Assembly: GCA_022819645.1 (NCBI GenBank)
Contig: JAJEGU010000006.1
Coordinates: forward strand, 6,620-70,619
Reading direction: 5' to 3'
From: Pseudomonadales bacterium
Lineage (GTDB): Bacteria > Pseudomonadota > Gammaproteobacteria > Pseudomonadales > Pseudohongiellaceae
Length of the DNA: 64,000 nt
Part shown: positions 2,191-60,210 of the stretch, piece after piece
Position numbering within the stretch: the first letter of the stretch is position 1
Layout of the letters: each line of letters starts with the position of its first letter
The notes under the pieces: model-generated
Seen by the model: the letters and a program-made list of their open reading frames with translations, nothing else
The model's database searches: none
What the model was told of the DNA's origin: nothing
Translations under genes and position numbers: made by a program

Positions 2191-2425
2191 ATCGGGATTT
2201 CTGAAGATGCCGGCAGGGCGTAACTGGGGGTCGTCGAGTACGGTTGACCTGCATCCCGACGGCGAGAGCATCTGGGTGGCGAGCGGTGCGGCGCCAATAT
2301 CAATGCCTGCGTGCAGAACCCCGATGTCAATCCCGTGATGCTTTTTGACAAGGACGGCAACATCATGCGCAGTTTCGGCGTCGGCTATATTTCCTGACCT
2401 CATGGCATTCACGTGGACCACGACG
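2191..2425 (+). pseudogene. fragment of an NHL-repeat beta-propeller gene (paralog of the CDS at 16022..17107)
   Basis: The fragment translates as LKMPAGRNWGSSSTVDLHPDGESIWVA, then after a 1-nt shift near 2279-2281 as ERCGANINACVQNPDVNPVMLFDKDGNIMRSFGVGYIS*PHGIHVDHD. The intact gene reads PLPDGREWGSTSAVDIDIDGESIWVAERCGSNSCALSDVDPVIKYDPEGNILTSFGGGMIIWPHGIHIDIDG. An in-frame TGA (2395-2397) replaces the Trp codon. The fragment is truncated at both ends. Confidence 0.7.
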
Positions 2426-2432
2426 CCAAGCT

Positions 2433-2768
2433 ATGCTTGGCGGCTGGACCGTACTCGACTTTGGCTGTGGTTGCACACGAGTGCTCGCGCACTTCTTCTG
2501 CGAAGATACGAAATGGAAGTTCACAGGTACTGATATTGACAGCGACGCGATAGTTTGGGTCCGGAAAAACTTTCCTGGTAAGGCTAGTTGGGACATCAAC
2601 GATAAACGACCTCCGCTCCCCTACGCCTCGCGGAGATTTGATGTTGTTTTTGCAATTTCTTTGTTCACTCACTTTGACGAGGATATGCAGTTTGATTGGT
2701 TGCAAGACCTCACGGAAAAGAACGCGCTTGTAATGCGCTATGGGCGTCCTGGGCCTGTACACTGGTAA
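2433..2768 (+). pseudogene. class I SAM-dependent methyltransferase fragment
   Basis: Motif I (VLDFGCGC) lies at the extreme N-terminus, followed by GTDIDSDAI and FDVVFAISLFTHF. The usual residues upstream of motif I and a full C-terminal half are missing. It abuts the NHL fragment. Confidence 0.45.
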
Positions 2769-3151
2769 TTCCGATCAAACCTCCAACGACTGCAAGCTTG
2801 TACAGGTTCATAATCTATGCAGTTACTTACTCCCTGAAGAGAATCGTATTCCCAAGCCGCACAACTGTTGTAGCTGTAAGAATTCACGCATTCGCTTGAT
2901 ATGAGGTTGAAAGCTTCGAAGCCTGTGAAGTTCCATGCCTGGCAACGTTCTAGCACAATGTGTTCGGATGCTGTCCAGTCAATTTCTGGACTCGATAGTG
3001 AGCTTGTCGCGCTCATGATTATCACGCCATTGCTACCGCCGCTAGCCACCGGAACCAGTAATTCTGAAGAGCCGCAATTGGCCAGACAGGCAGATGACCA
3101 AATAAGGGAAATCCTTAACACAGAGTGAAGGTGGATTATCTTGCCAGTCAT
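2738..3151 (-). CDS. hypothetical Cys-rich secreted protein
   Basis: A 137-aa ORF in a low-GC stretch with a hydrophobic N-terminus (LRISLIWSSACLANC) and several Cys. Its start overlaps the stop of the upstream ORF (ATGA at 3148-3151). Confidence 0.4.
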   Translation of the reverse strand: MTGKIIHLHSVLRISLIWSSACLANCGSSELLVPVASGGSNGVIIMSATSSLSSPEIDWTASEHIVLERCQAWNFTGFEAFNLISSECVNSYSYNSCAAWEYDSLQGVSNCIDYEPVQACSRWRFDRNYQCTGPGRP

Positions 3152-3531
3152 ATCGTGACACCCTTTGTGGCATTTAAGGCATTGATGATGTTCCTTTTGA
3201 AGTCTTCAAGAGGTTTTCGCTCCTCGCAACAGAGTTTGCGGTAGCTCATTGTGTCGGAACGATCCAAATGCCTCGCATTCTCAGTAACATGATGGATCGT
3301 CAGAGCATTCTCCATTTGTTTGAAACAGGGTATCGGCCCGTTGTCTCTCCGATAATTATTCATGACATATCCATCTGGATTGTCACGAAGCCAAAGTCGA
3401 TATTCTTCGTCTTTTTTGTAGAACTCAATGCAACATGGCGGTAGTTCAAATTGCCGGAGCATGGAATTCCCAAGTTTGATGGACTTAGGCTCGAATCCGC
3501 CCGGGGGCAAGGGAATTTTCATTGCGGTCAT
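3148..3531 (-). CDS. hypothetical protein
   Basis: A 127-aa ORF in low-GC sequence, translationally coupled to the ORF 2738..3151. No family recognised. Confidence 0.45.
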   Translation of the reverse strand: MTAMKIPLPPGGFEPKSIKLGNSMLRQFELPPCCIEFYKKDEEYRLWLRDNPDGYVMNNYRRDNGPIPCFKQMENALTIHHVTENARHLDRSDTMSYRKLCCEERKPLEDFKRNIINALNATKGVTI

Positions 3532-4671: not shown

Positions 4672-5244
4672 CTAGCGGCTGACCCGGTTCTGGTACTCCC
4701 CGGTTCGGGTATCCACCCGCAGCACGTCGCCTTCGTTGACGAACAGGGGCACCTTGACCACGGCGCCGGAACTCAGGGTGGCGGGCTTGGATCCGCCCTG
4801 GGCGGTGTCGCCCTTGAGGCCGGGGTCGGTTTCGGTGACTTCGAGTTCGACGAAATTGGGTGGAATCACCGAGATGGGATTGTCGTTCCACAGCACGACC
4901 TGATACGCCTCCTGGGGTTTCAGCCAGTTTTTCGCCTCGCTGATGGCGCTGGCGTCGGCGGCGAGTTGTTCGTAGCTGCCGTCGGTTTTCATGAAATGCC
5001 AGAATTCGCCGTCTTCGTAGAGATACTCCATGTCGATTTCGAGCACGTCGGCGCCGGGCAGCGATTCGCCGGACTTGAAGGTGCGCTCCCAGACGCGGCC
5101 ATTGAGCAGATTGCGGAACTTGACTCGATTGAAAGCCTGGCCCTTGCCGGGCTTGACGAATTCGTTTTCCAGAATCGAGCAGGGTTCGCCGTCCACCAGC
5201 AGTTTCAGACCGCCCTTGAACTCGTTGGTTGAATAGGATGTCAT
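4672..5244 (-). CDS. efp: elongation factor P
   Basis: Starts [49 protein letters not shown] and contains the KPGKGQA loop with the modified Lys. About 190 aa from ATG 5244. The upstream extension in the track ORF is unlikely. Confidence 0.95.
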
Positions 5245-7638: not shown

Positions 7639-8964
7639 ATGAAGTCCACCCGCATTGGTTCGCGCATTTCCCTGATTGCCTGTATCGCCTTGTTGCTGGC
7701 CATGAGCCTGTTCTGGCTGATCAGCAGCTACCATACGCGGCAGGTGCTCCAGGCCCAGGCGGACCAGCTTGGCCCCACCATTGCGCGGCAGGCGGCGGAA
7801 TTGCTCGCCGAGCACGTCGAGGCCGATGACCTCATCAGTATCAATGTCATTCTGGAAGAATTGGCGGCGGACCCGGCGGTCATCGAAGCCAGCCTGCTCG
7901 ATGAACAGGGGCAAAGCGTGGCGGTGGCGGGCAACCCCAATACCGTATCCTCCATTGCCTTGCTCACGCGACCGATGCTGCGGGAGGAGTATTACACCCG
8001 CAGCATTCAGTTTTTCGGCGCCGATCAGGGTACCGTCAGCGTTGCCCTGGATCTCGGCTATCTGCAGGCAACCCTGAACGACAATCTGCTGCTTGTGGGC
8101 GGCGCCACCCTCGTCATGCTGCTGGTCACCTGGATTTTTCTCGCAATCTATTGCCAGGTCGCGCTTGGTTTTCCGCTCAATCTGCTGGGTTGGTCCCTGG
8201 GCAAGATCAGGCGCGGAGAAATCGCCGAGTGCCCCGAACCCACCGGGCATGATGAAGTGGCCAATCTTACCCGGCAATACAATGCCACGGCGAAGTTTCT
8301 GTCTCGCAACACTTTTCTGGACCCGCTCAACGAGGAATCCCGGGAGCCGGACTTGCCGGAAGGGCAAGCGGTGGATCTCAGCGTACTCGTAATTCGCATG
8401 AGCAACTATTTCTCGCTGTCCACCGCCATGGGCCGGGAACAGGTGCTGCAATTGCTCGATCGTTACTACGTCCTCGCCGGCCAGGTGGGCCGGATCTACA
8501 ATGGCCGCGTCTGTTACTGCCACGAAGAGGAGATTTTCATTGCCTTCGACCGCAGCGCAGCCAGCGAGGAACAAGCCTATTACGCCATCTGCGCGGGGCT
8601 GCTGTTTCTTCGCCTGATTCCCCACCTCAATAAGCTTCCCGGCGTCGCCGGCGCCAGTTTCGGCCTCGTCGCCCACAGCGGCAAGCTGGAGGCAAGACTG
8701 TATTCACCCATCAGCGGCGCCAACGACAGCCTGATCGGCGAGGCTCCCGATCAGGCGCGGCGCATCTGCAACGACTGTCCCGATAACGCCCTGCTGCTCA
8801 GCCCGGAGTGCTACCAGCTCGCCGGCGCCGACTCCCGGATCAACGCTGAAGCCTTCAACGACCCGGACACCGAAGACCCGGCCCTCATCGCCCTCGCCCC
8901 GCCCGAGGAACTCGACGAGCTCCTCAACCTCCAGGCCAGCCGCCTTGCGGCATGCTTAGACTGA
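7639..8964 (+). CDS. membrane signalling protein: N-terminal TM, periplasmic region, second TM, HAMP-like linker, degenerate GGDEF/class III cyclase-like domain
   Basis: The start MKSTRIGSRISLIACIALLLAMSLFWLI is chosen over the Arg/Pro-rich upstream extension of track ORF 7048. There is a HAMP-like segment (GHDEVANLTRQYNATAKFL). The C-terminal LSVLVIRMSNYFSLS...CHEEEIFIAF aligns with the nucleotidyl-cyclase/GGDEF fold but lacks the canonical Asp and GGDEF residues. Confidence 0.65.
   Translation: MKSTRIGSRISLIACIALLLAMSLFWLISSYHTRQVLQAQADQLGPTIARQAAELLAEHVEADDLISINVILEELAADPAVIEASLLDEQGQSVAVAGNPNTVSSIALLTRPMLREEYYTRSIQFFGADQGTVSVALDLGYLQATLNDNLLLVGGATLVMLLVTWIFLAIYCQVALGFPLNLLGWSLGKIRRGEIAECPEPTGHDEVANLTRQYNATAKFLSRNTFLDPLNEESREPDLPEGQAVDLSVLVIRMSNYFSLSTAMGREQVLQLLDRYYVLAGQVGRIYNGRVCYCHEEEIFIAFDRSAASEEQAYYAICAGLLFLRLIPHLNKLPGVAGASFGLVAHSGKLEARLYSPISGANDSLIGEAPDQARRICNDCPDNALLLSPECYQLAGADSRINAEAFNDPDTEDPALIALAPPEELDELLNLQASRLAACLD
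8886..8948 (+). repeat. direct repeat copy A (3' coding end of the CDS 7639..8964)
   Basis: A 63-nt stretch matches 10993..11055 at 53 of 63 positions by my hand alignment. It encodes IALAPPEELDELLNLQASRLA. Confidence 0.85.
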
Positions 8965-8969
8965 TGAAG

Positions 8970-8998
8970 TTGAATACTGTGCATACATACAGTATCTT
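8970..8998 (+). promoter_or_regulatory. sigma70-type promoter with an embedded LexA (SOS) box
   Basis: TTGAAT (8970-8975), a 17-nt spacer, then TATCTT (8993-8998). The spacer and flanks contain TACTGTGCATACATACAGTA (8975-8994). That sequence fits CTGT-N8-ACAG and the gammaproteobacterial consensus TACTGTATATATATACAGTA. It lies about 115 nt upstream of ATG 9110. Confidence 0.6.
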
Positions 8999-9109
8999 TC
9001 AGGGAAATTCGTTATTCACAAGATAATCACAGTGCGCTAACGGATTATCCTTTGACGAAGAGTTGAGTACAGCATAAATTGAATTTACTAATTGAGAGGA
9101 CTGGGTAGC

Positions 9110-9925
9110 ATGGGCGGACCATTGGGAAATGTGGACAGAATACAAGTAGCAACTGCTACGAGGCCAGATCGGAAGCTGAACACCCGCAAGGGAATTGCTG
9201 GGCGTGCATTACTTCGTACTGACCATGGCCCCAAACAAGGGTATCTAAAGCTTTTGGATGTCCAAGGGATAGCCAAGGAATCCCTGTGCTGGGCACTGTC
9301 CCGTTGTTTGGGATTGCCTATACCACAAGCATATTACGTCTATGCAAACCCGAATGACCTTTCAGAATTATCGCCTCGCAACAAATTTTGCTTAGCATTT
9401 GGAACGGAAGAAATGGAATTTTCGCGAGATCGAATTGAGAATAGAAAGGTAATTGAAAGCAAGTTATTTGAATGGGAGTTTTCATTACAATGTGGAGTTT
9501 TTGATGAATGGATTGTTAACGGGGACAGAATTCCTAATAACTTATTGTATTCAAGCCACGGGAAGTTTACTTTGATCGATCATGATGAAGTTTTGCCCAC
9601 GCATGCTTCCGTCGACAGTCATTCAATCTCAGAAGTTCTGAAAAGACTAAGTCAGAACAGCACTGAATCTGCGAAGCATAACTTGTTTGAAAGAACAAAG
9701 CTATTTGTTCTGAGGATTCAAAGAATTGACTGGGAAAGGATTCGCCAAATGATTATAGTAGAAAATGTACCTGAAGTTCAATGGGATATGTTTATGGGCC
9801 ACAAAAATTTCCTTATGCAACGCGCAAAAATTTTACCCGAAGTGCTGCATTTAAGTCTAGGAATTTCACAAACCGAGCTATTAATAGGTGATGATACTCA
9901 ACAAGGGTGGGAGAAAATCCAATGA
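9110..9925 (+). CDS. HipA-like / PI3-4-kinase-fold protein kinase (putative)
   Basis: RBS GAGAGGA (9094-9100) precedes ATG 9110. The motif FDEWIVNGDRIPNNLLYSSHGKFTLIDHDEVL fits the catalytic loop (DRxxxN) and the metal-binding IDH(D/G) of the HipA-like kinase fold. Upstream are QGYLKLL (candidate ATP Lys) and ESLCWALSRCLGLPIPQAYYV. The sequence is AT-rich. Confidence 0.6.
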   Translation: MGGPLGNVDRIQVATATRPDRKLNTRKGIAGRALLRTDHGPKQGYLKLLDVQGIAKESLCWALSRCLGLPIPQAYYVYANPNDLSELSPRNKFCLAFGTEEMEFSRDRIENRKVIESKLFEWEFSLQCGVFDEWIVNGDRIPNNLLYSSHGKFTLIDHDEVLPTHASVDSHSISEVLKRLSQNSTESAKHNLFERTKLFVLRIQRIDWERIRQMIIVENVPEVQWDMFMGHKNFLMQRAKILPEVLHLSLGISQTELLIGDDTQQGWEKIQ

Positions 9926-10782
9926 GGTTTGGTTTTCCTGATCCACCCAATTTTGGGTTCTCTTGGCGAAATTTATTTGTCGAACCTGTACCTTTTTCCG
10001 GAGAAAAAATTTCAGTTGCAGCTATTGTTAAAACTGATGACGGGACTCTTATCGTTCCCAAGTTCGTATCGAGGCATAAATTTCGAAGCTTGTTCGGTGC
10101 TAGATTTAGTGCCCATGTTTCAGATATGCTCGAAATATGTATTGAATGCGCTGAAGAGCATTTCCAGAAAAACCCGATATACCTTGACTGGAAGCCACCG
10201 ATTAGCAGTTTCCATATTGGAGAGACAGAACACTCAATGGCAGTGGACTTGGAAGAAGCAGTATTGATAGTTGGGAAGTGCTGCTCTTCTATTTTTGTTT
10301 CAGAGAAAACTAGCCAAACCGCATTTCCGGGACTGAAAAAGTTACCTCCATTCCATAGGATTTGGGAATCCGAGATTAGATCGAGTGTAGGAATGCATCG
10401 TTCTTCCTTTGAAATCAATTTTGACAAATGTGTATATTTGAAAGAGGGTGGCGTTCGATTAAATTTCGGTTTTCTTTCTGAAAAATATGTTGCACAGTTT
10501 GAAGCAGTATCTAAACCTTCATCACTCCAAAGCGCTCTAGTTCGAGCTCAAGCTAAACTTTGGCAGCTTGATCTTCTAAGAAATGAGAAAGATATTTTCG
10601 GAGTTCCGAATTGCGAGTTGCTTCTTGGGTTGCCACAATCGGAGAAAGCAGGAAGAAACAAGACGATTATGGAGTTCGTGGAAGAACTGAAGTACGAAGC
10701 ATCGAAAAGAGAATTGAAAGTTTACACAGCTAGTTCACCTACTGAAGCGGCAATGCATCTAATTGAAAAAGCTGCGGCTTGA
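9922..10782 (+). CDS. unknown-function partner protein (N-terminus DUF3037-like)
   Basis: ATG 9922 overlaps the kinase stop (ATGA at 9922-9925), with RBS GGTGGGAG 8 nt upstream. The protein is 286 aa. The N-terminus WRNLFVEPVPFSGEKISVAAIVKTDDG recalls the opening pattern of DUF3037. I found no catalytic motif. Confidence 0.55.
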   Translation: MRFGFPDPPNFGFSWRNLFVEPVPFSGEKISVAAIVKTDDGTLIVPKFVSRHKFRSLFGARFSAHVSDMLEICIECAEEHFQKNPIYLDWKPPISSFHIGETEHSMAVDLEEAVLIVGKCCSSIFVSEKTSQTAFPGLKKLPPFHRIWESEIRSSVGMHRSSFEINFDKCVYLKEGGVRLNFGFLSEKYVAQFEAVSKPSSLQSALVRAQAKLWQLDLLRNEKDIFGVPNCELLLGLPQSEKAGRNKTIMEFVEELKYEASKRELKVYTASSPTEAAMHLIEKAAA

Positions 10783-10844
10783 AGAACCTGCGCTAGTAAA
10801 ACAAGGTAATCACATACCTAACCCAAATATTGCACGAGCCCATT

Positions 10845-10869
10845 GATTCGGCCCTGAATCGGTGTTTTT
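10845..10869 (+). terminator. weak intrinsic-terminator-like hairpin after the island operon
   Basis: GATTC (10845-10849), loop GGCCCT, GAATC (10856-10860), then GGTGTTTTT. The stem is only 5 bp, so this is tentative. Confidence 0.25.
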
Positions 10870-10992
10870 CGCGCCTTGCCGAGGCGTGACGGTTTCGGCC
10901 TGACCGAAACGGGACCAGAGTTTCCCTTGTCCGCTTCCTTTCGGGTGGGGCAGCCGCTAATCCCATAATCGATCGTTCCTGCAACGGTGTCC

Positions 10993-11063
10993 CATCGCTC
11001 TCGCCCCACCCGAAGAGCTCGATGAGCTACTCAACCTGCAAGCCACTCGCCTTGCCACCCGGT
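10993..11063 (+). pseudogene. displaced duplicate of the 3' end of the CDS 7639..8964 (direct repeat copy B)
   Basis: Reads IALAPPEELDELLNLQATRLATR* in frame. The matching part, 10993..11055, is 53/63 identical to 8886..8948. Eight of the differences are synonymous third-position changes and one codon is changed (Ser to Thr). No upstream coding continuation exists. Confidence 0.75.
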
Positions 11064-11200
11064 AATCGGACTTCCCGGTGACCCCGCTCCGCCGCCCGCC
11101 TGTCATCCAAATGTGAACCACGGGCCGAACCCCCGGGCACTTGTGAGACTGGTGTAGAATGATCCGCTATTTTCACGGGATTGCTGGAGGAGTTTCATCG

Positions 11201-12655
11201 ATGAAGCGGATTTGCGGATGGATTGGCCAGACAGGGCTGTTACTGGCTCTCGTTTCATTCACTCAGACGGCTCGGGCCGCCGAGGCGGTGGCGGGCCTCG
11301 ATCTTACGGGCAGTGGCCTCGGCATCGCCGCGCTGGTGTTGTTTGTGCTCGCCTATGCCCTGGTGATCAGCGAAGAGAACATTCATCTGCGCAAATCGAA
11401 ACCCGTGGTGGTTGCCGCCGGCGTGATCTGGATTCTGGTGGCGCTGGCCTATTCAGCCGCTGGTGAGTCTGCGCTGGTGGAAGAGCTGGTTTCCCACAAC
11501 CTGCTGGAATTCGTCGAACTGTTCCTCTTTCTGCTCGCGGCGATGACCTATATCAACACCATGGAAGAGCGGGGCATCTTCAACCTGTTGCGGGCAAAGC
11601 TTGTCAGCGCGGGATTTTCCCTGCGCAAGCTGTTCTGGATTACCGGGCTGATTTCCTTCTGCATGTCGCCACTGGCGGACAATCTCACCACCGCCCTGCT
11701 CATGGCCGCCGTGGTGGTTTCCATTGGCGGCGACAATACCCGCTTCGTCGTTCTCGGCTGCATCAATGTGGTGGTGGCGGCCAATGCCGGGGGCGTTTTC
11801 AGCCCCTTCGGAGACATCACCACCCTGATGATCTGGCAGGCGGGATACGTCCAGTTCCAGGAGTTTTTCGTGCTGGTGATTCCATCCATCGTGAACTGGG
11901 TGGTCACCGCCGGGATCATGAGTTTTGCGGTTTCCCATGAAAAACCCGCGGCAATCGAGGAAAAGGCCGAGGTGAAATTCGGCGGCTGGGTGGTGGTGGG
12001 GCTGTTCGGCATGACCATCGCCATGGCGGTGAGCTTCCACAACTTCCTGCACCTGCCGCCGGTGCTCGGCATGATGACCGGTCTTGGCATACTCAAGCTG
12101 TATGGCTACTACCTGCAAATGCGCGACGCCGGCTACATGGGCTCGGCCACATCACTGGTCAGCGGCGACGCCGCCATGTTCGGCGATTCCATGCTGGAAG
12201 ACGAAATCGAGGGTCGCGAGCAGCCCTACAATATTTTCCACAATCTCCAGCGGGCCGAGTGGGACACGCTGATCTTCTTCTACGGGATTATTCTCTGCGT
12301 TGGCGGGCTCGGCGCCTTTGGCTATCTCGCGGTGGTTTCCGAATTCACCTATGAAGGCCTGGGGCCCACGGTGGCCAATGTGCTGGTGGGATTCGCCTCG
12401 GCGCTGATCGACAACATTCCGGTCATGTTCGCCGTACTCGAAATGTCGCCGGAGATGGACCTGTTCCAGTGGCTGCTGATTACCCTGACCGCCGGCGCCG
12501 GCGGCTCCATGCTGTCGATCGGCTCGGCGGCGGGCGTAGCCGTCATGGGGCAGGCGCGGGGCGTGTATACCTTCTTTTCCCACCTGAAATGGAGCTGGGC
12601 GATCATGCTCGGCTACTTCGCCAGCATCGGCGCCCATTTCTTGCTCAATGGCTGA
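11201..12655 (+). CDS. nhaD: NhaD-type Na+/H+ antiporter (ArsB/NhaD permease superfamily)
   Basis: RBS GGAGGA lies 8 nt before ATG 11201. The product is a polytopic membrane protein with an N-terminal signal-like segment. It has an NhaD-like opening (LGIAALVLFVLAYALVISEENIHLRKSKPVVVAAGVIW) and the C-terminal repeat ALIDNIPV. The family call is from memory of NhaD sequences. Confidence 0.75.
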   Translation: MKRICGWIGQTGLLLALVSFTQTARAAEAVAGLDLTGSGLGIAALVLFVLAYALVISEENIHLRKSKPVVVAAGVIWILVALAYSAAGESALVEELVSHNLLEFVELFLFLLAAMTYINTMEERGIFNLLRAKLVSAGFSLRKLFWITGLISFCMSPLADNLTTALLMAAVVVSIGGDNTRFVVLGCINVVVAANAGGVFSPFGDITTLMIWQAGYVQFQEFFVLVIPSIVNWVVTAGIMSFAVSHEKPAAIEEKAEVKFGGWVVVGLFGMTIAMAVSFHNFLHLPPVLGMMTGLGILKLYGYYLQMRDAGYMGSATSLVSGDAAMFGDSMLEDEIEGREQPYNIFHNLQRAEWDTLIFFYGIILCVGGLGAFGYLAVVSEFTYEGLGPTVANVLVGFASALIDNIPVMFAVLEMSPEMDLFQWLLITLTAGAGGSMLSIGSAAGVAVMGQARGVYTFFSHLKWSWAIMLGYFASIGAHFLLNG

Positions 12656-56160: not shown

Positions 56161-56769
56161 ATGCAGGACCGAGAAAACCAGCCGCCGGCGCAGGAAACCT
56201 TGTCCGATTTGGAATCACTGCGTCGGCAAGTGGAATACCTGCGCGCCCTCGTCCATACCGACGAGCTCACCGGCCTGTCGAACCTGCGCCATTTCAACCA
56301 CACCCTCAGCCTCGAACTCGAGCGCACCCGGCGCAGCGGCCAGCCTACCTGCCTGATCCTGATGGATATCGACCAATTCAAGACCGTAAACGACAGCTAT
56401 GGCCACGAAGTCGGTAATTCGGTGCTTTGTCATCTCGCCCAACTCATCCAGGGCGCGATCCGCCGCCTCGACACCCCCTGCCGCCTCGGTGGCGACGAAT
56501 TCGCCATCATCCTGCCCTCCACCAATCTCGAACAGGGAATCCGGCTATCCCGGCGGTTGCAAACCCAATTCGGGCGCTCGCCCTTTCAAATGGGCGACAT
56601 CCACTGGAAAATCCAGGCCAGCACCGGAGTCGGCGTCTACGAGGCCGAAGACGGCGAACTCGCCGAAAGGGATTTCGTAGAAGCCGTGGATCAGTTGCTG
56701 TACCTGTCCAAACGCGACGACCGCAACCGCGTCGGTCATTCACTCGCTATGCAGCCACATCAAGAGTGA
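56161..56769 (+). CDS. diguanylate cyclase (stand-alone GGDEF with an N-terminal coiled coil)
   Basis: DELTGLSNLRHF, MDIDQFKTVNDSYGHEVGNSVL and an intact RLGGDEFAIIL. Confidence 0.85.
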   Translation: MQDRENQPPAQETLSDLESLRRQVEYLRALVHTDELTGLSNLRHFNHTLSLELERTRRSGQPTCLILMDIDQFKTVNDSYGHEVGNSVLCHLAQLIQGAIRRLDTPCRLGGDEFAIILPSTNLEQGIRLSRRLQTQFGRSPFQMGDIHWKIQASTGVGVYEAEDGELAERDFVEAVDQLLYLSKRDDRNRVGHSLAMQPHQE

Positions 56770-56977
56770 CGTGCATTTTTAGATTTTCCACACGAACGGG
56801 ATCATCTTCCAGCGTGGCCCATACATGTCGAATCGATTTCCAGTATTCATTTTTTGAGCCTCTTCAGTATTGTCAAAGCTGCTTCAATGCGTGAGTATGC
56901 GTAGTCTGGAACTGCGAAATAGCACACATGAAATCACTGAAACAGCGCCTGAATTGCTCTCTGGAAGGCGGACTCTC

Positions 56978-58261
56978 ATGAGGCGCCCGGCCGTACTGGA
57001 CGTATTCGCCGGCGTCGGAGGACTGAGCCTTGGTTTTGAACAGGCCGGATTCGACATCACGGCGGCTATCGAGATCGATCCGGTTCACGCGGCCACCCAC
57101 GAGTACAATTTTCCGTTGTGTCGGATGCACTGCGCCGACGCGACCGAGATATCCGGAACCGCCATCAGGCAAGAGCTATCGGGGCAGATCGACGTAATCG
57201 TCGGGGGTGCGCCTTGCCAGGGCTTTTCCATGATTGGCAAACGTGCTCTGGAAGATCCGCGGAACCAGCTCATCAAGCATTTTCTCCGTCTGGTAGTCGA
57301 ACTCGAACCGCCCGTATTCGTACTTGAGAACGTTCGTGGACTTACCGTCGGGGGGCATCGCCAACTCCTTGACGAATTGACCGTTGAGTTCGAGGCAGCG
57401 GGATACTCGGTGACGCTCCCTTGGCAGGTATTGAATGCACGTCATTTTGGAGTTCCCCAAGACCGGCAACGTCTCTTTCTGATGGGCGCCAAGGACGCAG
57501 TCGCTCCACGATACCCGATCGCTGAGATTCTCGTGCCTACGCCGACATGCCAAGACGCTCTGGACGATCTGCCAGACGCTGAGCAATATGACGAACTGAT
57601 TTGTTCCGACAGCGTGTTTGTTGGAGAGCCGACATCAAGTTTAAGCGCATACGCCAAGGAGATGAGGTGCCTCGGCAGCGAAGCCTGGCACAACGGGTAT
57701 GTACGCGAGTGGGACCCGAGACTCATGACGGCGAGTTTGCGAACGGCTCACACCGAAATCTCGCGAAGAAGATTTCGTAAAACAAAGCCCGCCGCCGTCG
57801 AACCCATCTCGCGGTTTTACAAGTTGGCCACGGGAGGAGTGTCGAATACGTTGCGCGCCGGAACTGACTCCGCTCGTGGCGCTTTCACGAGCCCCAGGCC
57901 GATTCACTATCGCTATGACCGTTGTGTCACGGTTAGGGAAATGGCACGGCTCCACGGGTTTCCCGACTGGTTCCGCTTTCACGTCACCAAGTGGCACGGT
58001 GGGCGGCAGATCGGAAATTCGGTGCCTCCGCCCTTGGCGAGAGCGGTTGCGGTTTCCGTGCGCGAGGCGCTGGGCGTAAAACCGATCCCCCCTGAGCGGT
58101 CTATCCCGCTAGGCTCTCCGGGATTGCTGGAAATGGACATGACAGAAGCCGCCGCCTATTGGAGCGTGGACGTTCCCATCGCAAGACGAGACCGGAAGAG
58201 CGGTGCCACCAAGCGTAAGCAGCAGGATATCGAGCGAGAACTCGCTCGCGCCAGCGCATGA
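56978..58261 (+). CDS. DNA (cytosine-5)-methyltransferase
   Basis: Motif I VLDVFAGVGGLSLGF, motif IV GGAPCQGFS, motif VI ENV, motif VIII QDRQRLF and motif X GNSVPPPLA. I prefer the start at ATG 56978 (RBS GGAAGG). In-frame alternatives are at 56870 and 56897. Confidence 0.9.
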   Translation: MRRPAVLDVFAGVGGLSLGFEQAGFDITAAIEIDPVHAATHEYNFPLCRMHCADATEISGTAIRQELSGQIDVIVGGAPCQGFSMIGKRALEDPRNQLIKHFLRLVVELEPPVFVLENVRGLTVGGHRQLLDELTVEFEAAGYSVTLPWQVLNARHFGVPQDRQRLFLMGAKDAVAPRYPIAEILVPTPTCQDALDDLPDAEQYDELICSDSVFVGEPTSSLSAYAKEMRCLGSEAWHNGYVREWDPRLMTASLRTAHTEISRRRFRKTKPAAVEPISRFYKLATGGVSNTLRAGTDSARGAFTSPRPIHYRYDRCVTVREMARLHGFPDWFRFHVTKWHGGRQIGNSVPPPLARAVAVSVREALGVKPIPPERSIPLGSPGLLEMDMTEAAAYWSVDVPIARRDRKSGATKRKQQDIERELARASA

Positions 58262-59037
58262 GTTACGATGCAATAATCGAGCGCGTTTTCTTTGACCGGT
58301 ACCAAGCCGGTTATGTCGAAGTCGAATTCGTTAGAGACGATCTTATTGGCGCGGCGAAGGTTCTCGGTGTATCCGTTCCCAAAAACCTGGGAGACATTAT
58401 TTACACCTTTCGTTATCGCCGCCCTCTGCCCAAAGCCATCCTGGAGACCGCGCCTTCCGATAGAGAGTGGACGATTCGCGGGTCAGGATTGGCTGCCTAC
58501 AAATTCCGTCTGGTTGGCGTTAATCGAATCGTTCCGACTACCATGCGGATGACGATCAAGATTCCGGATGCAACACCGGAAATCGTCGCAGCCCATTCCA
58601 TGTCGGACGAGCAAGCGCTCCTGGCGAGGATTCGATACAACCGTCTGATCGATGTATTTCTGGGTGTGTCGGCATACTCGCTTCAAAATCACCTGCGCAC
58701 CACAGTCCAGCAGATTGGTCAGATTGAAGTGGACGAAATTTACGTTGCGGTCGACAGCACGGGAAGGCAATTCATTCTTCCTGTCCAGGCAAAGGGTGGA
58801 AGCGACCAACTGTCGGTTATTCAATCGGAACAGGATTTCCTGTGGTGTCAAGAAAGACTACCCGACTTGATTTGTCGCCCGATCCTCACCCAATTCGCCG
58901 AAAACAACCTGATCGCGATGTTCGAAGTCACGATGGAGAACGAAGAAATCAGGGTCGTGCAGGAGAGGCACTATCGACTAGTGCCAGCATCCGAAGTGAC
59001 GTCGGACGACCTTATTCGCTACCGCAACTCCGCATAG
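58258..59037 (+). CDS. putative type II restriction endonuclease partner (PD-(D/E)xK-like)
   Basis: Its start overlaps the methyltransferase stop (ATGA at 58258-58261). IEVDEIYVAVDSTGRQFILPVQAKGG fits a D...(E/Q)xK nuclease core. No specific enzyme family recognised. Confidence 0.5.
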   Translation: MSYDAIIERVFFDRYQAGYVEVEFVRDDLIGAAKVLGVSVPKNLGDIIYTFRYRRPLPKAILETAPSDREWTIRGSGLAAYKFRLVGVNRIVPTTMRMTIKIPDATPEIVAAHSMSDEQALLARIRYNRLIDVFLGVSAYSLQNHLRTTVQQIGQIEVDEIYVAVDSTGRQFILPVQAKGGSDQLSVIQSEQDFLWCQERLPDLICRPILTQFAENNLIAMFEVTMENEEIRVVQERHYRLVPASEVTSDDLIRYRNSA

Positions 59038-59125
59038 AGTATCGAATTCGATCAAAGAGTACATCGAATGGATAGGTGACCGAGGTCTCGATGGCGAGAA
59101 GCAGATAGAGGTCGGTAAGGGTGTT

Positions 59126-60172
59126 GTGTTGCTTACTTTCGTGCGAACGTTCGTGAACCCTGTTAGATTGTACTTTCACGGAATTGCTACACGATACCGC
59201 AGTTTTCGGCGCGCCCGCCAATCAGACGAGCGCTGGTACGTGGCTGGCGCAATTCGCCAGACGGACATCCATCCTCTGGAACTCGATATGATGCTGTTGT
59301 CCATTCTGAGAGGCGCAAGATCATTGCTTTCATCAAGAGATGTTCAACGCGATCTGAACAGTAACAGTTCATTTTGGGCAGTCCTTCAGCCTGTGCAGGA
59401 ATCTTTCAGGAATCAGATTTTTGTCGATGAAGCTACAGACTTTTCCCCGGTTCAGCTTGCTTGCATGTCGGCCCTATCACTACCGGCTATGCCCTCATTC
59501 TTTGCATGTGGTGATTTTAATCAACGGCTGTCTTCTTGGGGTACGCGCTCGGTCACAGAGGTCGAATGGGCTGATTCAAGAATAGGCATAGAGAGAGTCA
59601 CGGTTGGCTATAGACAAAGCCGAGAACTTAATGAGTTTGCCCGCGAGATTGTACGCATCGGGGGAGGAGCGGACTACGACGTGGTTCTTCCTGAACATGC
59701 GATTCGAGATGGATTCCCTCCCGTTCTGGCTGAGAACATGTGCAACGACCCAGATGTTGGCATCTGGCTCGCGGATCGCGTGACCGAAATCGAGAGATCT
59801 GTCGGTCAATTACCGTCAATAGCAATATTGGTTCCCGAAGAGGAACAGGTAAGATCAGTTGCTAAAGCGCTTCAGGAAACGCTAGCGGAACAAAACATCA
59901 ACGTGGTGGCATGTCCCGATGGCCAAGTTATCGGGCAAGACAACGACATACGCGTATTCGATGTGCAACACATAAAAGGACTTGAGTTCGAGGCAGTCTT
60001 CTTTAAGGATGTTGACCACTTGGCGGAAGTCTATCCAGATCTGTTCGACAAGTTTCTCTACGTAGGCGCAACTCGGGCGGCGACCTACCTGGGCCTGACG
60101 TGCTCAGGCTCGCTCCCCCCTGCGATCTCGAAACTGCGGCCGATGTTCTCAAAAGAATGGAGTGGAAAATGA
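59126..60172 (+). CDS. UvrD/Rep-type SF1 helicase C-terminal portion, lacking the Walker A half (possible pseudogene)
   Basis: VDEATDFSP (motif II-like), CGDFNQ (motif III-like), then KGLEFEAVFF and YVGATRAATYL (motifs V/VI-like). No P-loop exists in this ORF or in the 88 nt upstream. The first ATG is at 59288; the track start 59126 is GTG. Confidence 0.55.
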   Translation: MLLTFVRTFVNPVRLYFHGIATRYRSFRRARQSDERWYVAGAIRQTDIHPLELDMMLLSILRGARSLLSSRDVQRDLNSNSSFWAVLQPVQESFRNQIFVDEATDFSPVQLACMSALSLPAMPSFFACGDFNQRLSSWGTRSVTEVEWADSRIGIERVTVGYRQSRELNEFAREIVRIGGGADYDVVLPEHAIRDGFPPVLAENMCNDPDVGIWLADRVTEIERSVGQLPSIAILVPEEEQVRSVAKALQETLAEQNINVVACPDGQVIGQDNDIRVFDVQHIKGLEFEAVFFKDVDHLAEVYPDLFDKFLYVGATRAATYLGLTCSGSLPPAISKLRPMFSKEWSGK

Positions 60173-60210
60173 TCAGTACGGATTAAATCTGTCTTTTGGT
60201 GCTGTCCATG

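What the first reader, a model, noticed from the sequence alone, without database searches (positions are those of the whole stretch)
9110..10782. Two-gene operon: HipA-like kinase plus an unknown 286-aa partner, a candidate undescribed SOS-controlled toxin or defence module
Both ORFs are tightly coupled (ATGA overlap at 9922-9925), AT-rich, and sit alone on a 2-kb insertion.

ORF1 carries FDEWIVNGDRIPNNLLYSSHGKFTLIDHDEVL. I read this as the catalytic loop (D-R-x-x-x-N) and the metal-binding I-D-H-D of the HipA / PI3-4-kinase fold. A candidate ATP-binding Lys (QGYLKLL) and an LGLPIP segment typical of HipA-like kinases precede it.

ORF2 has no motif I can name. Its N-terminus (LFVEPVPFSGEKISVAAIVKTDDG) resembles the opening of DUF3037. 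From memory, DUF3037 is a frequent genomic neighbour of one HipA-like kinase clade, but ORF2 is about twice the usual DUF3037 length.

There is no HipB-like HTH antitoxin. Instead, the operon appears to be under LexA control (separate finding). I know of no characterised toxin-antitoxin or anti-phage system with this kinase-plus-partner composition and this SOS wiring.
Basis: partly seen in the sequence, partly recalled or inferred. Interest (0 to 1): 0.85.

Follow-up and report, generated by a model that had tools for sequence, protein, structure and literature searches.

The report
SOS-wired HipA-like kinase defence cassette
This 2-kb AT-rich insert carries a HipA-like kinase gene and a partner gene that together look like a divergent, SOS-box-bearing version of the recently validated HipAD (DS-6 / PDC-M66) kinase toxin–antitoxin anti-phage system, so it is a new variant of a known kind.

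Summary
Two translationally coupled ORFs (9110-9925 and 9922-10782, with an ATGA overlap) lie on a 41% GC islet in a 61% GC Pseudohongiella-like chromosome.

- **ORF1** is a Pfam HipA_2 kinase (E 8.4e-10). Its Lys, catalytic Asp/Asn and Mg-binding Asp are invariant in its family. Its D139 aligns with D139 of DS-6A, the residue whose mutation abolishes defence.
- **ORF2** belongs to an unannotated ~285-aa family of about 580 clusters at 50% identity. In every intact locus examined it follows a HipA_2 kinase gene.
- **No existing model detects ORF2.** None of 137 family members hits Pfam DUF3037 or PADLOC PDC-M66B.
- **ORF2 nevertheless resembles DS-6B.** It shares size, gene order, 4-bp overlap, predicted two-domain fold and top structural neighbours. 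A weak collinear profile match also exists (E 1.7e-4).

The kinase-plus-partner composition is therefore already known and validated as HipAD/DS-6/PDC-M66.

What appears new is the undetected partner family and a perfect LexA box (8975-8994) that travels with the module. Six of 24 related loci carry it, against 0.03 expected. A conserved promoter/operator block also accompanies the module.

Toxicity, neutralisation, defence and SOS induction are all inferred, not shown.

The parts
8886..8948 (+). Left direct repeat. It forms the 3' end of the intact SMP_2 (PF10144) gene, whose stop is at 8962-8964.
   Evidence: It matches 10993-11055 over 63 bp at 84% identity. L032's SMP_2 3' end is 97.6% identical to this copy and 82.6% identical to the right copy.
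8970..8998 (+). Putative distal promoter P1: TTGAAT, 17-nt spacer, TATCTT. The LexA box fills the spacer.
   Evidence: Read from the sequence. It scores 8 of 12 matches, below the scan's threshold of 9. The same TTGAnT-17-TAnnnT layout surrounds the box in L004, L007, L005 and L014. Promoter function is inferred.
8975..8994 (.). LexA (SOS) box TACTGTGCATACATACAGTA, matching the gammaproteobacterial consensus CTGT-N8-ACAG.
   Evidence: It is the only match in 64 kb even when 2 mismatches are allowed. A strict box lies at the same aligned position in 6 of 24 non-redundant related loci, against 0.03 expected (Poisson P about 1e-12). The arms are conserved while the spacers differ.
9016..9057 (+). 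Conserved upstream block and operator-like inverted repeat. The arms are 9016-9028 and 9043-9055, and the repeat overlaps the -35 element.
   Evidence: Inverted repeat of 13 nt, 85% complementary. About 20 loci share the block CACAAnTTATCCACAG...AACAGGGTTGTGC-TTGAC. L021 has a 15-nt palindrome at the same place. An operator role is inferred.
9052..9080 (+). Proximal sigma-70 promoter P2: TTGACG, 17-nt spacer, TAAATT.
   Evidence: Promoter scan gives 9 of 12 matches. The -35 TTGAC and the -10 TAnAnT with a 17-nt spacer are conserved across related loci.
9094..9100 (+). Ribosome-binding site GAGAGGA for ORF1.
   Evidence: Read from the sequence; it lies 9 nt upstream of ATG 9110.
9110..9925 (+). 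ORF1: a 271-aa HipA_2-family Ser/Thr kinase and the presumed toxin or effector. Key residues are K47, D139, N144 and D157.
   Evidence: Pfam PF20613 at E 8.4e-10, 38.7 bits against a cutoff of 27. It also hits phrog_3162. All 17 full-length homologues are PF20613, and the invariant residues are listed. hhalign against DS-6A gives probability 96.4 and E 1.3e-9, with D139 aligned to DS-6A D139.
9922..10782 (+). ORF2: a 286-aa partner and the presumed neutraliser. It has an N-terminal DUF3037-like domain (about residues 1-132) and a C-terminal domain with a restriction-endonuclease-like fold (about residues 144-285).
   Evidence: No hit in Pfam, NCBIfam or PADLOC. It matches phrog_21150 over its full length at E 4.9e-26. 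The family has 580 representatives. The AF2 model has pLDDT 86 and pTM 0.84. XPF/Mus81/ERCC4-like hits cover the C-terminal domain.
10841..10872 (+). Intrinsic-terminator-like hairpin followed by a T-run.
   Evidence: Terminator scan: 10-pair stem at 10841-10864, then TTTTT. It is not conserved in other loci.
10993..11055 (+). Right direct repeat: an orphan copy of the SMP_2 3' end displaced by the insertion.
   Evidence: 84% identical to 8886-8948. It is not part of any long ORF.

Best explanation
The islet is a self-contained two-gene cassette of the HipAD (DS-6 / PDC-M66) type.

Proposed mechanism:
- ORF1 is a small HipA_2-family serine/threonine kinase. When free, it arrests the cell by phosphorylating an essential target.
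- ORF2 is translationally coupled to ORF1 and acts as its cognate neutraliser. It is a very divergent structural counterpart of DS-6B/'HipD', with a DUF3037-like N-terminal domain and a probably non-catalytic, possibly DNA-binding, nuclease-fold C-terminal domain.
- Basal transcription comes from a conserved proximal promoter (P2). An inverted repeat over its -35 element is a candidate autoregulatory operator.
- In this lineage a distal promoter (P1) lies under a LexA box, so DNA damage should raise expression.
- Phage infection, or prophage induction signalled through SOS, is proposed to release the kinase and abort infection or stop growth.

Shown here: family assignments, catalytic-residue conservation, strict gene pairing and order, fold correspondence to DS-6B, phage and prophage contexts, LexA-box conservation, and the island's boundaries and decay.

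Inferred: kinase toxicity, neutralisation by ORF2, anti-phage activity, operator function and SOS inducibility.
For: Kinase:
- ORF1 hits Pfam HipA_2 above the cutoff, and the catalytic K/D/N/D residues are invariant.
- The ORF1 profile matches DS-6A with probability 96.4 and E 1.3e-9, and D139 aligns to the DS-6A residue whose D139A mutation abolishes defence.
- Five ORF1-family members hit PADLOC PDC-M66A at E 1e-5 to 5e-8.

Pairing:
- The kinase gene lies directly upstream of the ORF2 homologue in 26 of 29 genome loci.
- The same holds for distant family members P0110, P0163 and P0221.
- The 4-bp overlap and gene order match DS-6 and other canonical pairs.

Partner fold:
- The ORF2 and DS-6B-like AF2 models have the same order of secondary-structure elements.
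- The two models share their top two BFVD hits. A0A516KZK0 scores 2.9e-18 for ORF2 and 1.7e-8 for DS-6B. A0A516KTX2 scores 8.4e-8 and 9.4e-9.
- Profile-profile comparison gives E 1.7e-4 over 237 collinear columns. It aligns W15/P22/E28 of ORF2 with Y7/P14/E20 of DS-6B. The score exceeds all 22 reversed or shuffled controls.

Function of the known relatives:
- In HipAD/DS-6 and Retron-Sda1, the kinase is needed for defence and deletion of the partner is toxic.

Context:
- In Alteromonas phage P24, Acinetobacter phage qsb1 and a Marinobacter plasmid, the kinase/ORF2-family pair follows the repressor gene.
- A canonical HipA_2/DUF3037 pair occupies the same position in a Klebsiella prophage.

Decay asymmetry:
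- The kinase gene is truncated while the partner is intact in L005, L006 and L009, and possibly L019. The reverse never occurs.
- This matches the toxin-first pseudogenisation reported for TA systems (PMC13617665).

Regulation:
- The LexA box is enriched at a fixed position in different chromosomal contexts.
Against: - ORF2 fails both sequence definitions of the partner. No family member out of 137 hits Pfam DUF3037 or PADLOC PDC-M66B at E<=1.
- The window's own ORF1 hits no PADLOC model.
- The profile-profile match to DS-6B homologues is weak. Probability is 49.5% with 39 sequences, falling to 6.8% (P 0.005) with 118 sequences.
- The structural link is indirect. It rests on element order and shared neighbours, with TM-scores of only about 0.43 because the domain orientation differs.
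- The LexA box lies about 68 nt upstream of the best promoter's -35. P1 matches only 8 of 12 consensus positions.
- Eighteen of 24 related loci lack a strict box. None was found upstream of the canonical HipAD pairs or the distant family members sampled.
- Raising transcription of a co-transcribed toxin/antitoxin pair does not by itself free a toxin.
- ORF1 shows no significant similarity to E. coli HipA (E 0.014) or to any PDB sequence.
- No experiment exists for this clade.
Confidence: 0.65

Rival explanations
1. The pair is a chromosomal SOS-induced kinase toxin-antitoxin or growth-arrest (persistence/addiction) module with no role in phage defence. DNA damage derepresses it, and the kinase slows growth until repair is complete.
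For: - A conserved LexA box travels with the module.
- In this clade the pairs sit alone among housekeeping genes, not in defence islands.
- From general knowledge, LexA-controlled toxin modules exist in E. coli (tisB, symE, dinJ-yafQ). This was not checked here.
- The decay asymmetry fits any toxin-antitoxin pair.
Against: - The closest characterised relatives protect against phage.
- The same gene pair occupies the immunity-region slot next to the repressor in phages. A distant member sits in an integrase island.
- Most related loci lack the LexA box.
Confidence: 0.15
2. ORF2 is not an antitoxin. It is a sensor or co-effector (for example a nuclease-fold DNA or phage-protein sensor) needed to activate the kinase. 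The pair would then be a two-component defence system rather than a toxin-antitoxin pair.
For: - The C-terminal domain has a restriction-endonuclease/ERCC4-like fold.
- ORF2 is larger than typical antitoxins and is highly conserved at its N-terminal hairpin.
- DS-5 in the same study is a two-gene system that is not a toxin-antitoxin pair.
Against: - Deleting the DUF3037 partner of the related Sda1 system was toxic.
- Kinase-only decay with an intact ORF2, and never the reverse, suggests the kinase is harmful without ORF2.
- No acidic or lysine residue in the C-terminal domain is at least 90% conserved across 137 sequences, which argues against catalysis.
Confidence: 0.12
3. The LexA box is a non-functional relic or serves something other than this operon. 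On this view the operon is expressed only from the proximal promoter and is not SOS-controlled.
For: - The box lies about 68 nt upstream of the -35 of the only promoter that passes the scan.
- P1 is weak, matching 8 of 12 positions.
- One strict CTGT-N8-ACAG site per 64 kb is roughly the chance expectation.
- Eighteen of 24 related loci lack a strict box.
Against: - All 12 specified bases match perfectly.
- The position is the same in six loci that lie in different chromosomal contexts, and the spacers vary while the arms stay conserved.
- The enrichment has P about 1e-12.
- Nothing divergent or downstream other than this operon is available for the box to regulate.
Confidence: 0.3
4. The islet is a decayed leftover of a prophage immunity region, a moron pair that outlived its phage, rather than an independently mobile cassette.
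For: - In phages the pair follows the repressor gene.
- Both proteins hit PHROGs.
- GC content is low.
Against: - No other phage gene or att/integrase remnant is present in the 2.1-kb insert.
- The scan of viral contigs for close relatives found none.
- The same compact unit of promoter block plus two genes recurs in many unrelated chromosomal sites. Four of them are bracketed by duplicated host DNA of variable length.
Confidence: 0.1

Closest known systems
HipAD / DS-6 / PADLOC PDC-M66 (HipA_2 kinase + DUF3037-DUF1829 protein; E. coli WP_000389051.1 + WP_000210934.1)
   Same: - The kinase comes first, the partner second, and the genes overlap by 4 bp.
- Sizes are similar: 249+275 aa in DS-6 against 271+286 aa here.
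- Both kinases belong to Pfam HipA_2, and the catalytic Asp139 is equivalent.
- The partner has the same predicted two-domain topology and the same best structural neighbours.
- Both versions occur right after prophage repressor genes.
   Different: - The partner is not detected by the DUF3037 or PDC-M66B models (0 of 137 members), and profile similarity is only borderline.
- The window's kinase falls below PDC-M66A detection.
- This clade carries a LexA box and a conserved promoter/operator block. These were absent from the canonical pairs sampled and are not mentioned in either paper.
- No experimental data exist for this clade.
HipBA (E. coli HipA kinase toxin + HipB HTH antitoxin)
   Same: - Both involve a kinase toxin with a D-x4-N catalytic loop and a downstream Mg-binding Asp.
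- The alignment register places D139/N144/D157 of ORF1 on D309/N314/D332 of HipA.
- Both appear to follow two-gene operon logic with palindromic operators at the promoter. This is inferred for the window.
   Different: - ORF1 is 271 aa against 440 aa for HipA, and it lacks the HipA N-terminal domain.
- It does not hit HipA_C or HipA_N, and the HipA comparison is not significant (E 0.014).
- The gene order is reversed, with the kinase first.
- There is no HTH antitoxin.
Lambda cI-rexA-rexB style prophage immunity-region defence genes
   Same: In phage P24, phage qsb1, the Marinobacter plasmid and a Klebsiella prophage, the kinase pair sits directly downstream of the repressor gene. That is the classic slot for lysogen-expressed exclusion systems.
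   Different: - The proteins are unrelated.
- In the window there is no repressor gene, and a host LexA box occupies the upstream position instead.
LexA-regulated toxin modules of E. coli (tisB/istR, symER, dinJ-yafQ) - recalled from general knowledge, not tested here
   Same: Both place a toxin-type module under an SOS box.
   Different: The toxin chemistry differs, since here it is a kinase. Here the box sits at a distal promoter and is present in only part of the family.

Membership tests
Pfam PF20613 HipA_2 (HipA-like kinase) | Match to the family HMM above the curated gathering score | tested here: met
   ORF1 scores 38.7 bits against a cutoff of 27 (E 8.4e-10, residues 52-182). All 17 full-length homologues are annotated PF20613.
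Pfam PF20613 HipA_2 (HipA-like kinase) | Conserved ATP-binding Lys, catalytic Asp, Asn at +5, and Mg-binding Asp | tested here: met
   K47, D139, N144 and D157 are invariant in 16 sequences. D139 aligns with the experimentally essential D139 of DS-6A.
HipA sensu stricto (HipA_C / HipA_N, HipBA systems) | HMM match to HipA_C or HipA_N, and an upstream HipB-type HTH antitoxin | tested here: not met
   Only HipA_2 and a spurious Stealth hit appear at E<=10. hhalign against E. coli HipA gives E 0.014 and probability 3%. There is no HTH ORF in the islet.
HipAD / DS-6 / PDC-M66 | Kinase component recognised by the PDC-M66A model | tested here: inconclusive
   The window's ORF1 has no PADLOC hit at E<=10. 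Five of six other ORF1-family members tested hit PDC-M66A at 1e-5 to 5e-8, and DS-6A itself hits at 6e-15. The ORF1 profile against DS-6A gives E 1.3e-9.
HipAD / DS-6 / PDC-M66 | Partner carries DUF3037 (PF11236) or matches PDC-M66B | tested here: not met
   No ORF2-family member out of 137 hits PF11236 at E<=1 or PDC-M66B at E<=1. The positive control P0222 hits PDC-M66B at 6.6e-16.
HipAD / DS-6 / PDC-M66 | Partner has the DS-6B two-domain fold (DUF3037-like N-domain plus DUF1829/nuclease-like C-domain) | tested here: met
   The two AF2 models have the same order of secondary-structure elements and the same top two BFVD neighbours at E 1e-8 to 3e-18. hhalign is collinear at E 1.7e-4 and above 22 controls. 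This is indirect, because no direct structure superposition was possible.
HipAD / DS-6 / PDC-M66 | Operon layout: kinase first, partner second, overlapping or abutting genes | tested here: met
   ATGA overlap at 9922-9925. DS-6 coordinates are 2415-3164 and 1591-2418. Canonical pairs L037-L041 show the same layout.
HipAD / DS-6 / PDC-M66 | Kinase toxic without its partner, and kinase-dependent anti-phage protection | not testable with these tools
   There is only indirect support. The kinase gene is truncated while the partner is intact in 3-4 loci, and the reverse never occurs.
LexA (SOS) regulon | Consensus gammaproteobacterial LexA box positioned to occlude a promoter | tested here: inconclusive
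   The 20-mer at 8975-8994 is a perfect match. It fills the spacer of a weak TTGAAT-17-TATCTT promoter, but it lies 68 nt upstream of the stronger P2.
LexA (SOS) regulon | Box conserved in orthologous or related loci | tested here: met
   A strict box is present at the aligned position in 6 of 24 non-redundant loci, against 0.03 expected. Near-boxes occur in L005, L014 and L010. The arms are conserved and the spacers vary.
LexA (SOS) regulon | LexA binding and DNA-damage induction in vivo | not testable with these tools
   No expression or binding data are available.

The most novel reading that the evidence does not exclude
The ORF2 family defines a distinct, currently undetectable branch of kinase-based immunity of about 580 protein clusters. 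In the Pseudohongiella/Cellvibrio clade it is a recombinase-less 2-kb cassette carrying its own LexA-controlled promoter. On this reading the trigger is the SOS signal itself (DNA damage, or prophage induction in the same cell) rather than classical antitoxin decay. Derepression would unleash kinase-mediated arrest. A conserved DnaA-box-like element (TTATCCACA) next to the promoter would add a second, replication-status input.
Probability: 0.2. Interest if true: 0.65.

Novelty: new variant of a known kind. Interest (0 to 1): 0.4.

Why it matters
- **Detection gap.** Current defence-system detectors (PADLOC PDC-M66 and Pfam DUF3037) miss this partner family entirely. Yet it is as consistently paired with HipA_2 kinases as DUF3037 is, and it occurs in chromosomes, plasmids and temperate phages. 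Adding it would enlarge the known HipAD family and give a second, very divergent partner sequence set for working out how these proteins hold the kinase in check.
- **Testable regulation.** The LexA box that moves with the cassette offers a concrete hypothesis linking the SOS response to a kinase toxin. Neither paper describing the system mentions this.
- **No new principle otherwise.** The system type, its toxin-antitoxin-like logic and its anti-phage role have already been shown for relatives.

Tried and rejected
- **PADLOC, NCBIfam and Pfam on ORF2:** no meaningful hits. The Tailspike_C hit (E 0.24) is noise.
- **ORF2 profile against the single DS-6B sequence:** nothing. A signal appeared only with a DS-6B family profile.
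- **Foldseek against the PDB for ORF2:** only weak hits to the nuclease-fold domain (E 0.05-0.3), so no solved homologue exists.
- **ORF1 profile against PDB sequences:** no hit at E<=1.
- **ORF1 profile against E. coli HipA:** not significant.
- **Viral-contig scan for close ORF2 relatives:** none.
- **Rfam scan of 8800-11300:** only a spurious snoRNA hit far below the gathering score.
- **tRNA genes as integration targets:** none found in six related loci.
- **Integrase/att model for the insertion:** rejected as unlikely. No recombinase gene is present, and the flanking repeats vary from 63 to about 800 bp at 84-98% identity.
- **Conserved terminator downstream of ORF2 across loci:** not found.
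- **Brenes & Laub 2025 paper that named HipAD:** not in the library.
Full report
**1. The observation**

ORF1 runs 9110-9925 (271 aa) and ORF2 runs 9922-10782 (286 aa), both on the + strand. They share an ATGA start/stop overlap at 9922-9925.

The mechanical ORF list offers longer versions starting at TTG 9092 and GTG 9907. Alignments with homologues support the ATG starts. So do an RBS at 9094-9100 and a promoter whose -10 ends at 9080.

GC drops to 0.37-0.42 across 9200-10800, against about 0.60-0.63 on both sides. This is the only strong dip in the 64-kb window.

The window matches a metagenome-assembled gammaproteobacterial contig. The islet lies between an SMP_2-family membrane protein gene and a CitMHS transporter gene.

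**2. It is an insertion, and it is dispensable**

The islet is bracketed by a 63-bp direct repeat at 84% identity (8886-8948 and 10993-11055). The repeat is the 3' end of the SMP_2 gene. The left copy completes the gene and the right copy is an orphan.

The same gene neighbourhood (GGDEF/EAL, SMP_2, module, CitMHS, M28 peptidase) holds the module in L004, L005 and L007 (L004's short contig shows only the right-hand flank). Flank proteins there are 65-89% identical to the window's, but module proteins are only 35-62% identical.

In L032, a Pseudohongiella genome, the flanks are 94-98% identical in DNA. Only a 167-bp remnant survives, corresponding to window 9869-10035 at 87% identity.

Three further loci also have the module bracketed by duplicated host DNA:

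| Locus | Repeat length | Identity |
|---|---|---|
| L010 | 178 bp | 90% |
| L016 | at least 115 bp | 98% |
| L050 (= L008) | about 700-800 bp | 86-93% |

No recombinase gene or tRNA is involved. The variable length and the divergence fit Campbell-type homologous integration of a circular fragment from a related donor better than att-site recombination. This is an inference.

**3. ORF1**

- Pfam assigns ORF1 to HipA_2 (PF20613) at E 8.4e-10, 38.7 bits against a cutoff of 27. All full-length homologues carry the same domain.
- K47, E57, D132, E133, W134, N137, D139, R140, N144, D157 and H158 are invariant.
- The family profile matches the validated DS-6A kinase with probability 96.4 and E 1.3e-9. 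ORF1 D139 aligns with DS-6A D139, whose D139A mutant loses defence.
- Five of six other family members tested hit PADLOC PDC-M66A at 1e-5 to 5e-8. The window's own ORF1 does not.
- Similarity to E. coli HipA itself is not significant (E 0.014). The alignment register nevertheless puts D139/N144/D157 on HipA D309/N314/D332.
- No PDB sequence matches.

ORF1 is a HipA_2 kinase, not a HipA sensu stricto.

**4. ORF2**

No Pfam, NCBIfam or PADLOC model matches ORF2. It matches the unannotated phrog_21150 over its full length at E 4.9e-26.

A word-indexed search found 55 clusters. A full HMM search found 580 representatives at E<=1e-3, of which 377 are at E<=1e-10. Nearly all of the 150 best-scoring ones listed are 275-300 aa.

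None of 137 members hits DUF3037 or PDC-M66B. The positive control, a 99%-identical DS-6B homologue, hits PDC-M66B at 6.6e-16.

The AF2 model is confident (pLDDT 86, pTM 0.84) and has two domains joined by a disordered linker at residues 134-139.

- **Fold comparison.** A model of the DS-6B homologue (pLDDT 91.7) has the same succession of strands and helices in both domains.
- **Shared neighbours.** Both models share their two best BFVD neighbours over about 290-300 aligned columns. ORF2 scores 2.9e-18 and 8.4e-8; DS-6B scores 1.7e-8 and 9.4e-9.
- **Profile comparison.** The two families compare at E 1.7e-4 over 237 collinear columns. The alignment places the most conserved ORF2 residues (W15, P22, E28) on Y7, P14 and E20 of DS-6B. 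With 118 DUF3037 sequences the score is 27.8. Reversed or column-shuffled controls scored 11.6-19.0.
- **C-terminal domain.** It resembles XPF/Mus81/ERCC4-type nuclease folds. No acidic or lysine residue is at least 90% conserved there, so it is probably non-catalytic.

My reading is that ORF2 is a remote, structurally equivalent counterpart of DS-6B that current sequence models do not reach. By the sequence definition it is not a DUF3037 protein.

**5. The pairing**

- A kinase homologue lies immediately upstream of the ORF2 homologue in 26 of 29 genome loci, all from Gammaproteobacteria MAGs.
- Three members only about 20-25% identical to ORF2 also follow a HipA_2 gene. One of them sits in an integrase/AlpA/AAA_25 island.
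- In Alteromonas phage P24, Acinetobacter phage qsb1 and a 47-kb Marinobacter plasmid, the order is repressor-like HTH or Arc gene, HipA_2 kinase, then ORF2-family gene.
- Canonical HipA_2/DUF3037 pairs have the same layout. They sit after a cI-type repressor in a Klebsiella prophage, beside an MmeI-type enzyme and a NERD protein, or beside a KAP NTPase.
- The kinase gene is truncated while ORF2 is intact in L005, L006 and L009, and possibly L019. The reverse never occurs, and both genes are lost in L031 and L032.

This asymmetry is what a toxin/neutraliser pair predicts. It matches the toxin-first pseudogenisation reported for TA systems (PMC13617665). MAG assembly errors could account for some of the truncations.

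**6. What is already known**

HipA-like kinase plus DUF3037 protein is PADLOC candidate PDC-M66.

- In the Retron-Sda1 operon, deleting the kinase abolished defence against phage Bas51. Deleting the DUF3037 gene was toxic (PMC12548924).
- DefensePredictor validated the E. coli pair as DS-6, renamed HipAD. It showed loss of defence with a catalytic mutant and predicted A-B and B-DNA contacts (PMC13092281).
- That paper credits Brenes & Laub 2025 for an independent discovery. That paper is not held in the library.

**7. Regulation**

About 20 related loci share an upstream block: CACAAnTTATCCACAG, N8, AACAGGGTTGTGC, TTGAC(-35), N17, TAnAnT(-10).

- In the window this gives promoter P2: TTGACG 9052-9057, a 17-nt spacer, and TAAATT 9075-9080.
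- A 13-nt inverted repeat (9016-9028 and 9043-9055) overlaps the -35. L021 has a 15-nt palindrome at the same place.
- This is a candidate operator. The idea fits the predicted DNA binding of DS-6B but is untested.

The LexA box TACTGTGCATACATACAGTA (8975-8994) is the only match in the window.

- It fills the spacer of a weaker promoter-like pair, TTGAAT-17-TATCTT (8970-8998).
- A strict CTGT-N8-ACAG box occupies the same aligned position in the window, L004, L007, L018, L023/L024 and L027.
- One-mismatch versions occur in L005 and L014, and a degenerate one in L010.
- That makes 6 of 24 non-redundant loci, against 0.03 expected (Poisson P about 1e-12). The loci are related by descent, so this figure overstates independence.
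- The arms are conserved while the spacers differ. Several of these loci lie in unrelated chromosomal contexts, so the box belongs to the cassette and not to a host gene.
- No box was found upstream of the distant family members or canonical HipAD pairs sampled. Neither paper mentions LexA or SOS.

SOS control is therefore a well-supported prediction for part of this clade, but it remains a prediction.

A terminator-like hairpin follows ORF2 at 10841-10864. It is not conserved elsewhere.

**8. Verdict**

The pair is a kinase-plus-partner module and very probably a toxin/neutraliser pair with a defence role. It is a divergent variant of an already validated system, not an undescribed kind.
- Three things appear new: a large partner family invisible to current models, a cassette-borne LexA box, and a conserved promoter/operator block.
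- Confidence in the HipAD-like assignment is about 0.65. Confidence that the LexA box is functional is about 0.6-0.7.
- Interest is 0.4.

Noticed in passing
window 56600-60200: A second, milder low-GC islet (0.49-0.53 against about 0.62). It encodes a C-5 cytosine DNA methyltransferase (56870-58261, PF00145, E 4.6e-67). Next comes an unannotated 259-aa protein overlapping it by 4 bp (58258-59037). A 348-aa protein with a UvrD_C_2 domain follows (59126-60172). This is probably a restriction-modification or defence islet.
   Followed up: partly
window 8886-8948 / 10993-11055; L010 2718-2895 / 4925-5102; L016 1-115 / 2132-2246; L050 4731-5417 / 7849-8647: In four independent loci the kinase cassette is bracketed by direct repeats of host DNA. 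Lengths range from 63 to about 800 bp, and identity is 84-98%. No recombinase gene or tRNA is nearby. This looks like Campbell-type homologous integration of a circular fragment from a related donor.
   Followed up: partly
L032 7948-8114 (sister genome of the window): A near-identical Pseudohongiella genome has lost the cassette. It keeps a 167-bp remnant covering the ORF1 3' end and the first 38 codons of ORF2. The remnant is 87% identical to the window, while the flanks are 94-98% identical.
   Followed up: yes
L010, L013-L016, L018, L023, L027, about 30 nt upstream of the -35; window 9022-9033 (degenerate): A perfect DnaA-box 9-mer (TTATCCACA) is conserved next to the cassette promoter in eight related loci. 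The window's copy reads GATAATCACA. It is unknown whether this is a DnaA site, part of the partner protein's operator, or neither.
   Followed up: no
L005, L006, L009, L019 (kinase gene); L031, L032: Decay is one-sided. The kinase gene is truncated or interrupted while the partner gene stays intact in 3-4 loci, and the reverse never occurs. Some cases may be MAG assembly errors.
   Followed up: partly
window ~1118-2106: Two adjacent ORFs carry IS1595-family transposase domains (DDE_Tnp_IS1595 and Zn_ribbon_IS1595). They are probably a split or degraded IS copy. Coordinates were converted from the gene calls on the identical contig L001.
   Followed up: no
L035 2232-2882: A distant member of the kinase/ORF2-family pair sits in an integrase/AlpA/AAA_25 island, directly downstream of an SRAP (SOS-response-associated peptidase) gene. 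This may be coincidence.
   Followed up: no
L043 (Alteromonas phage P24, 46,945 bp) and L045 (Marinobacter sp. M3C plasmid, 46,935 bp): The two replicons are nearly the same size. They share the same arrangement of repressor, kinase and ORF2-family gene. The 'plasmid' also has RusA, YdaS and HicAB genes, so it may be a phage-plasmid related to P24.
   Followed up: no
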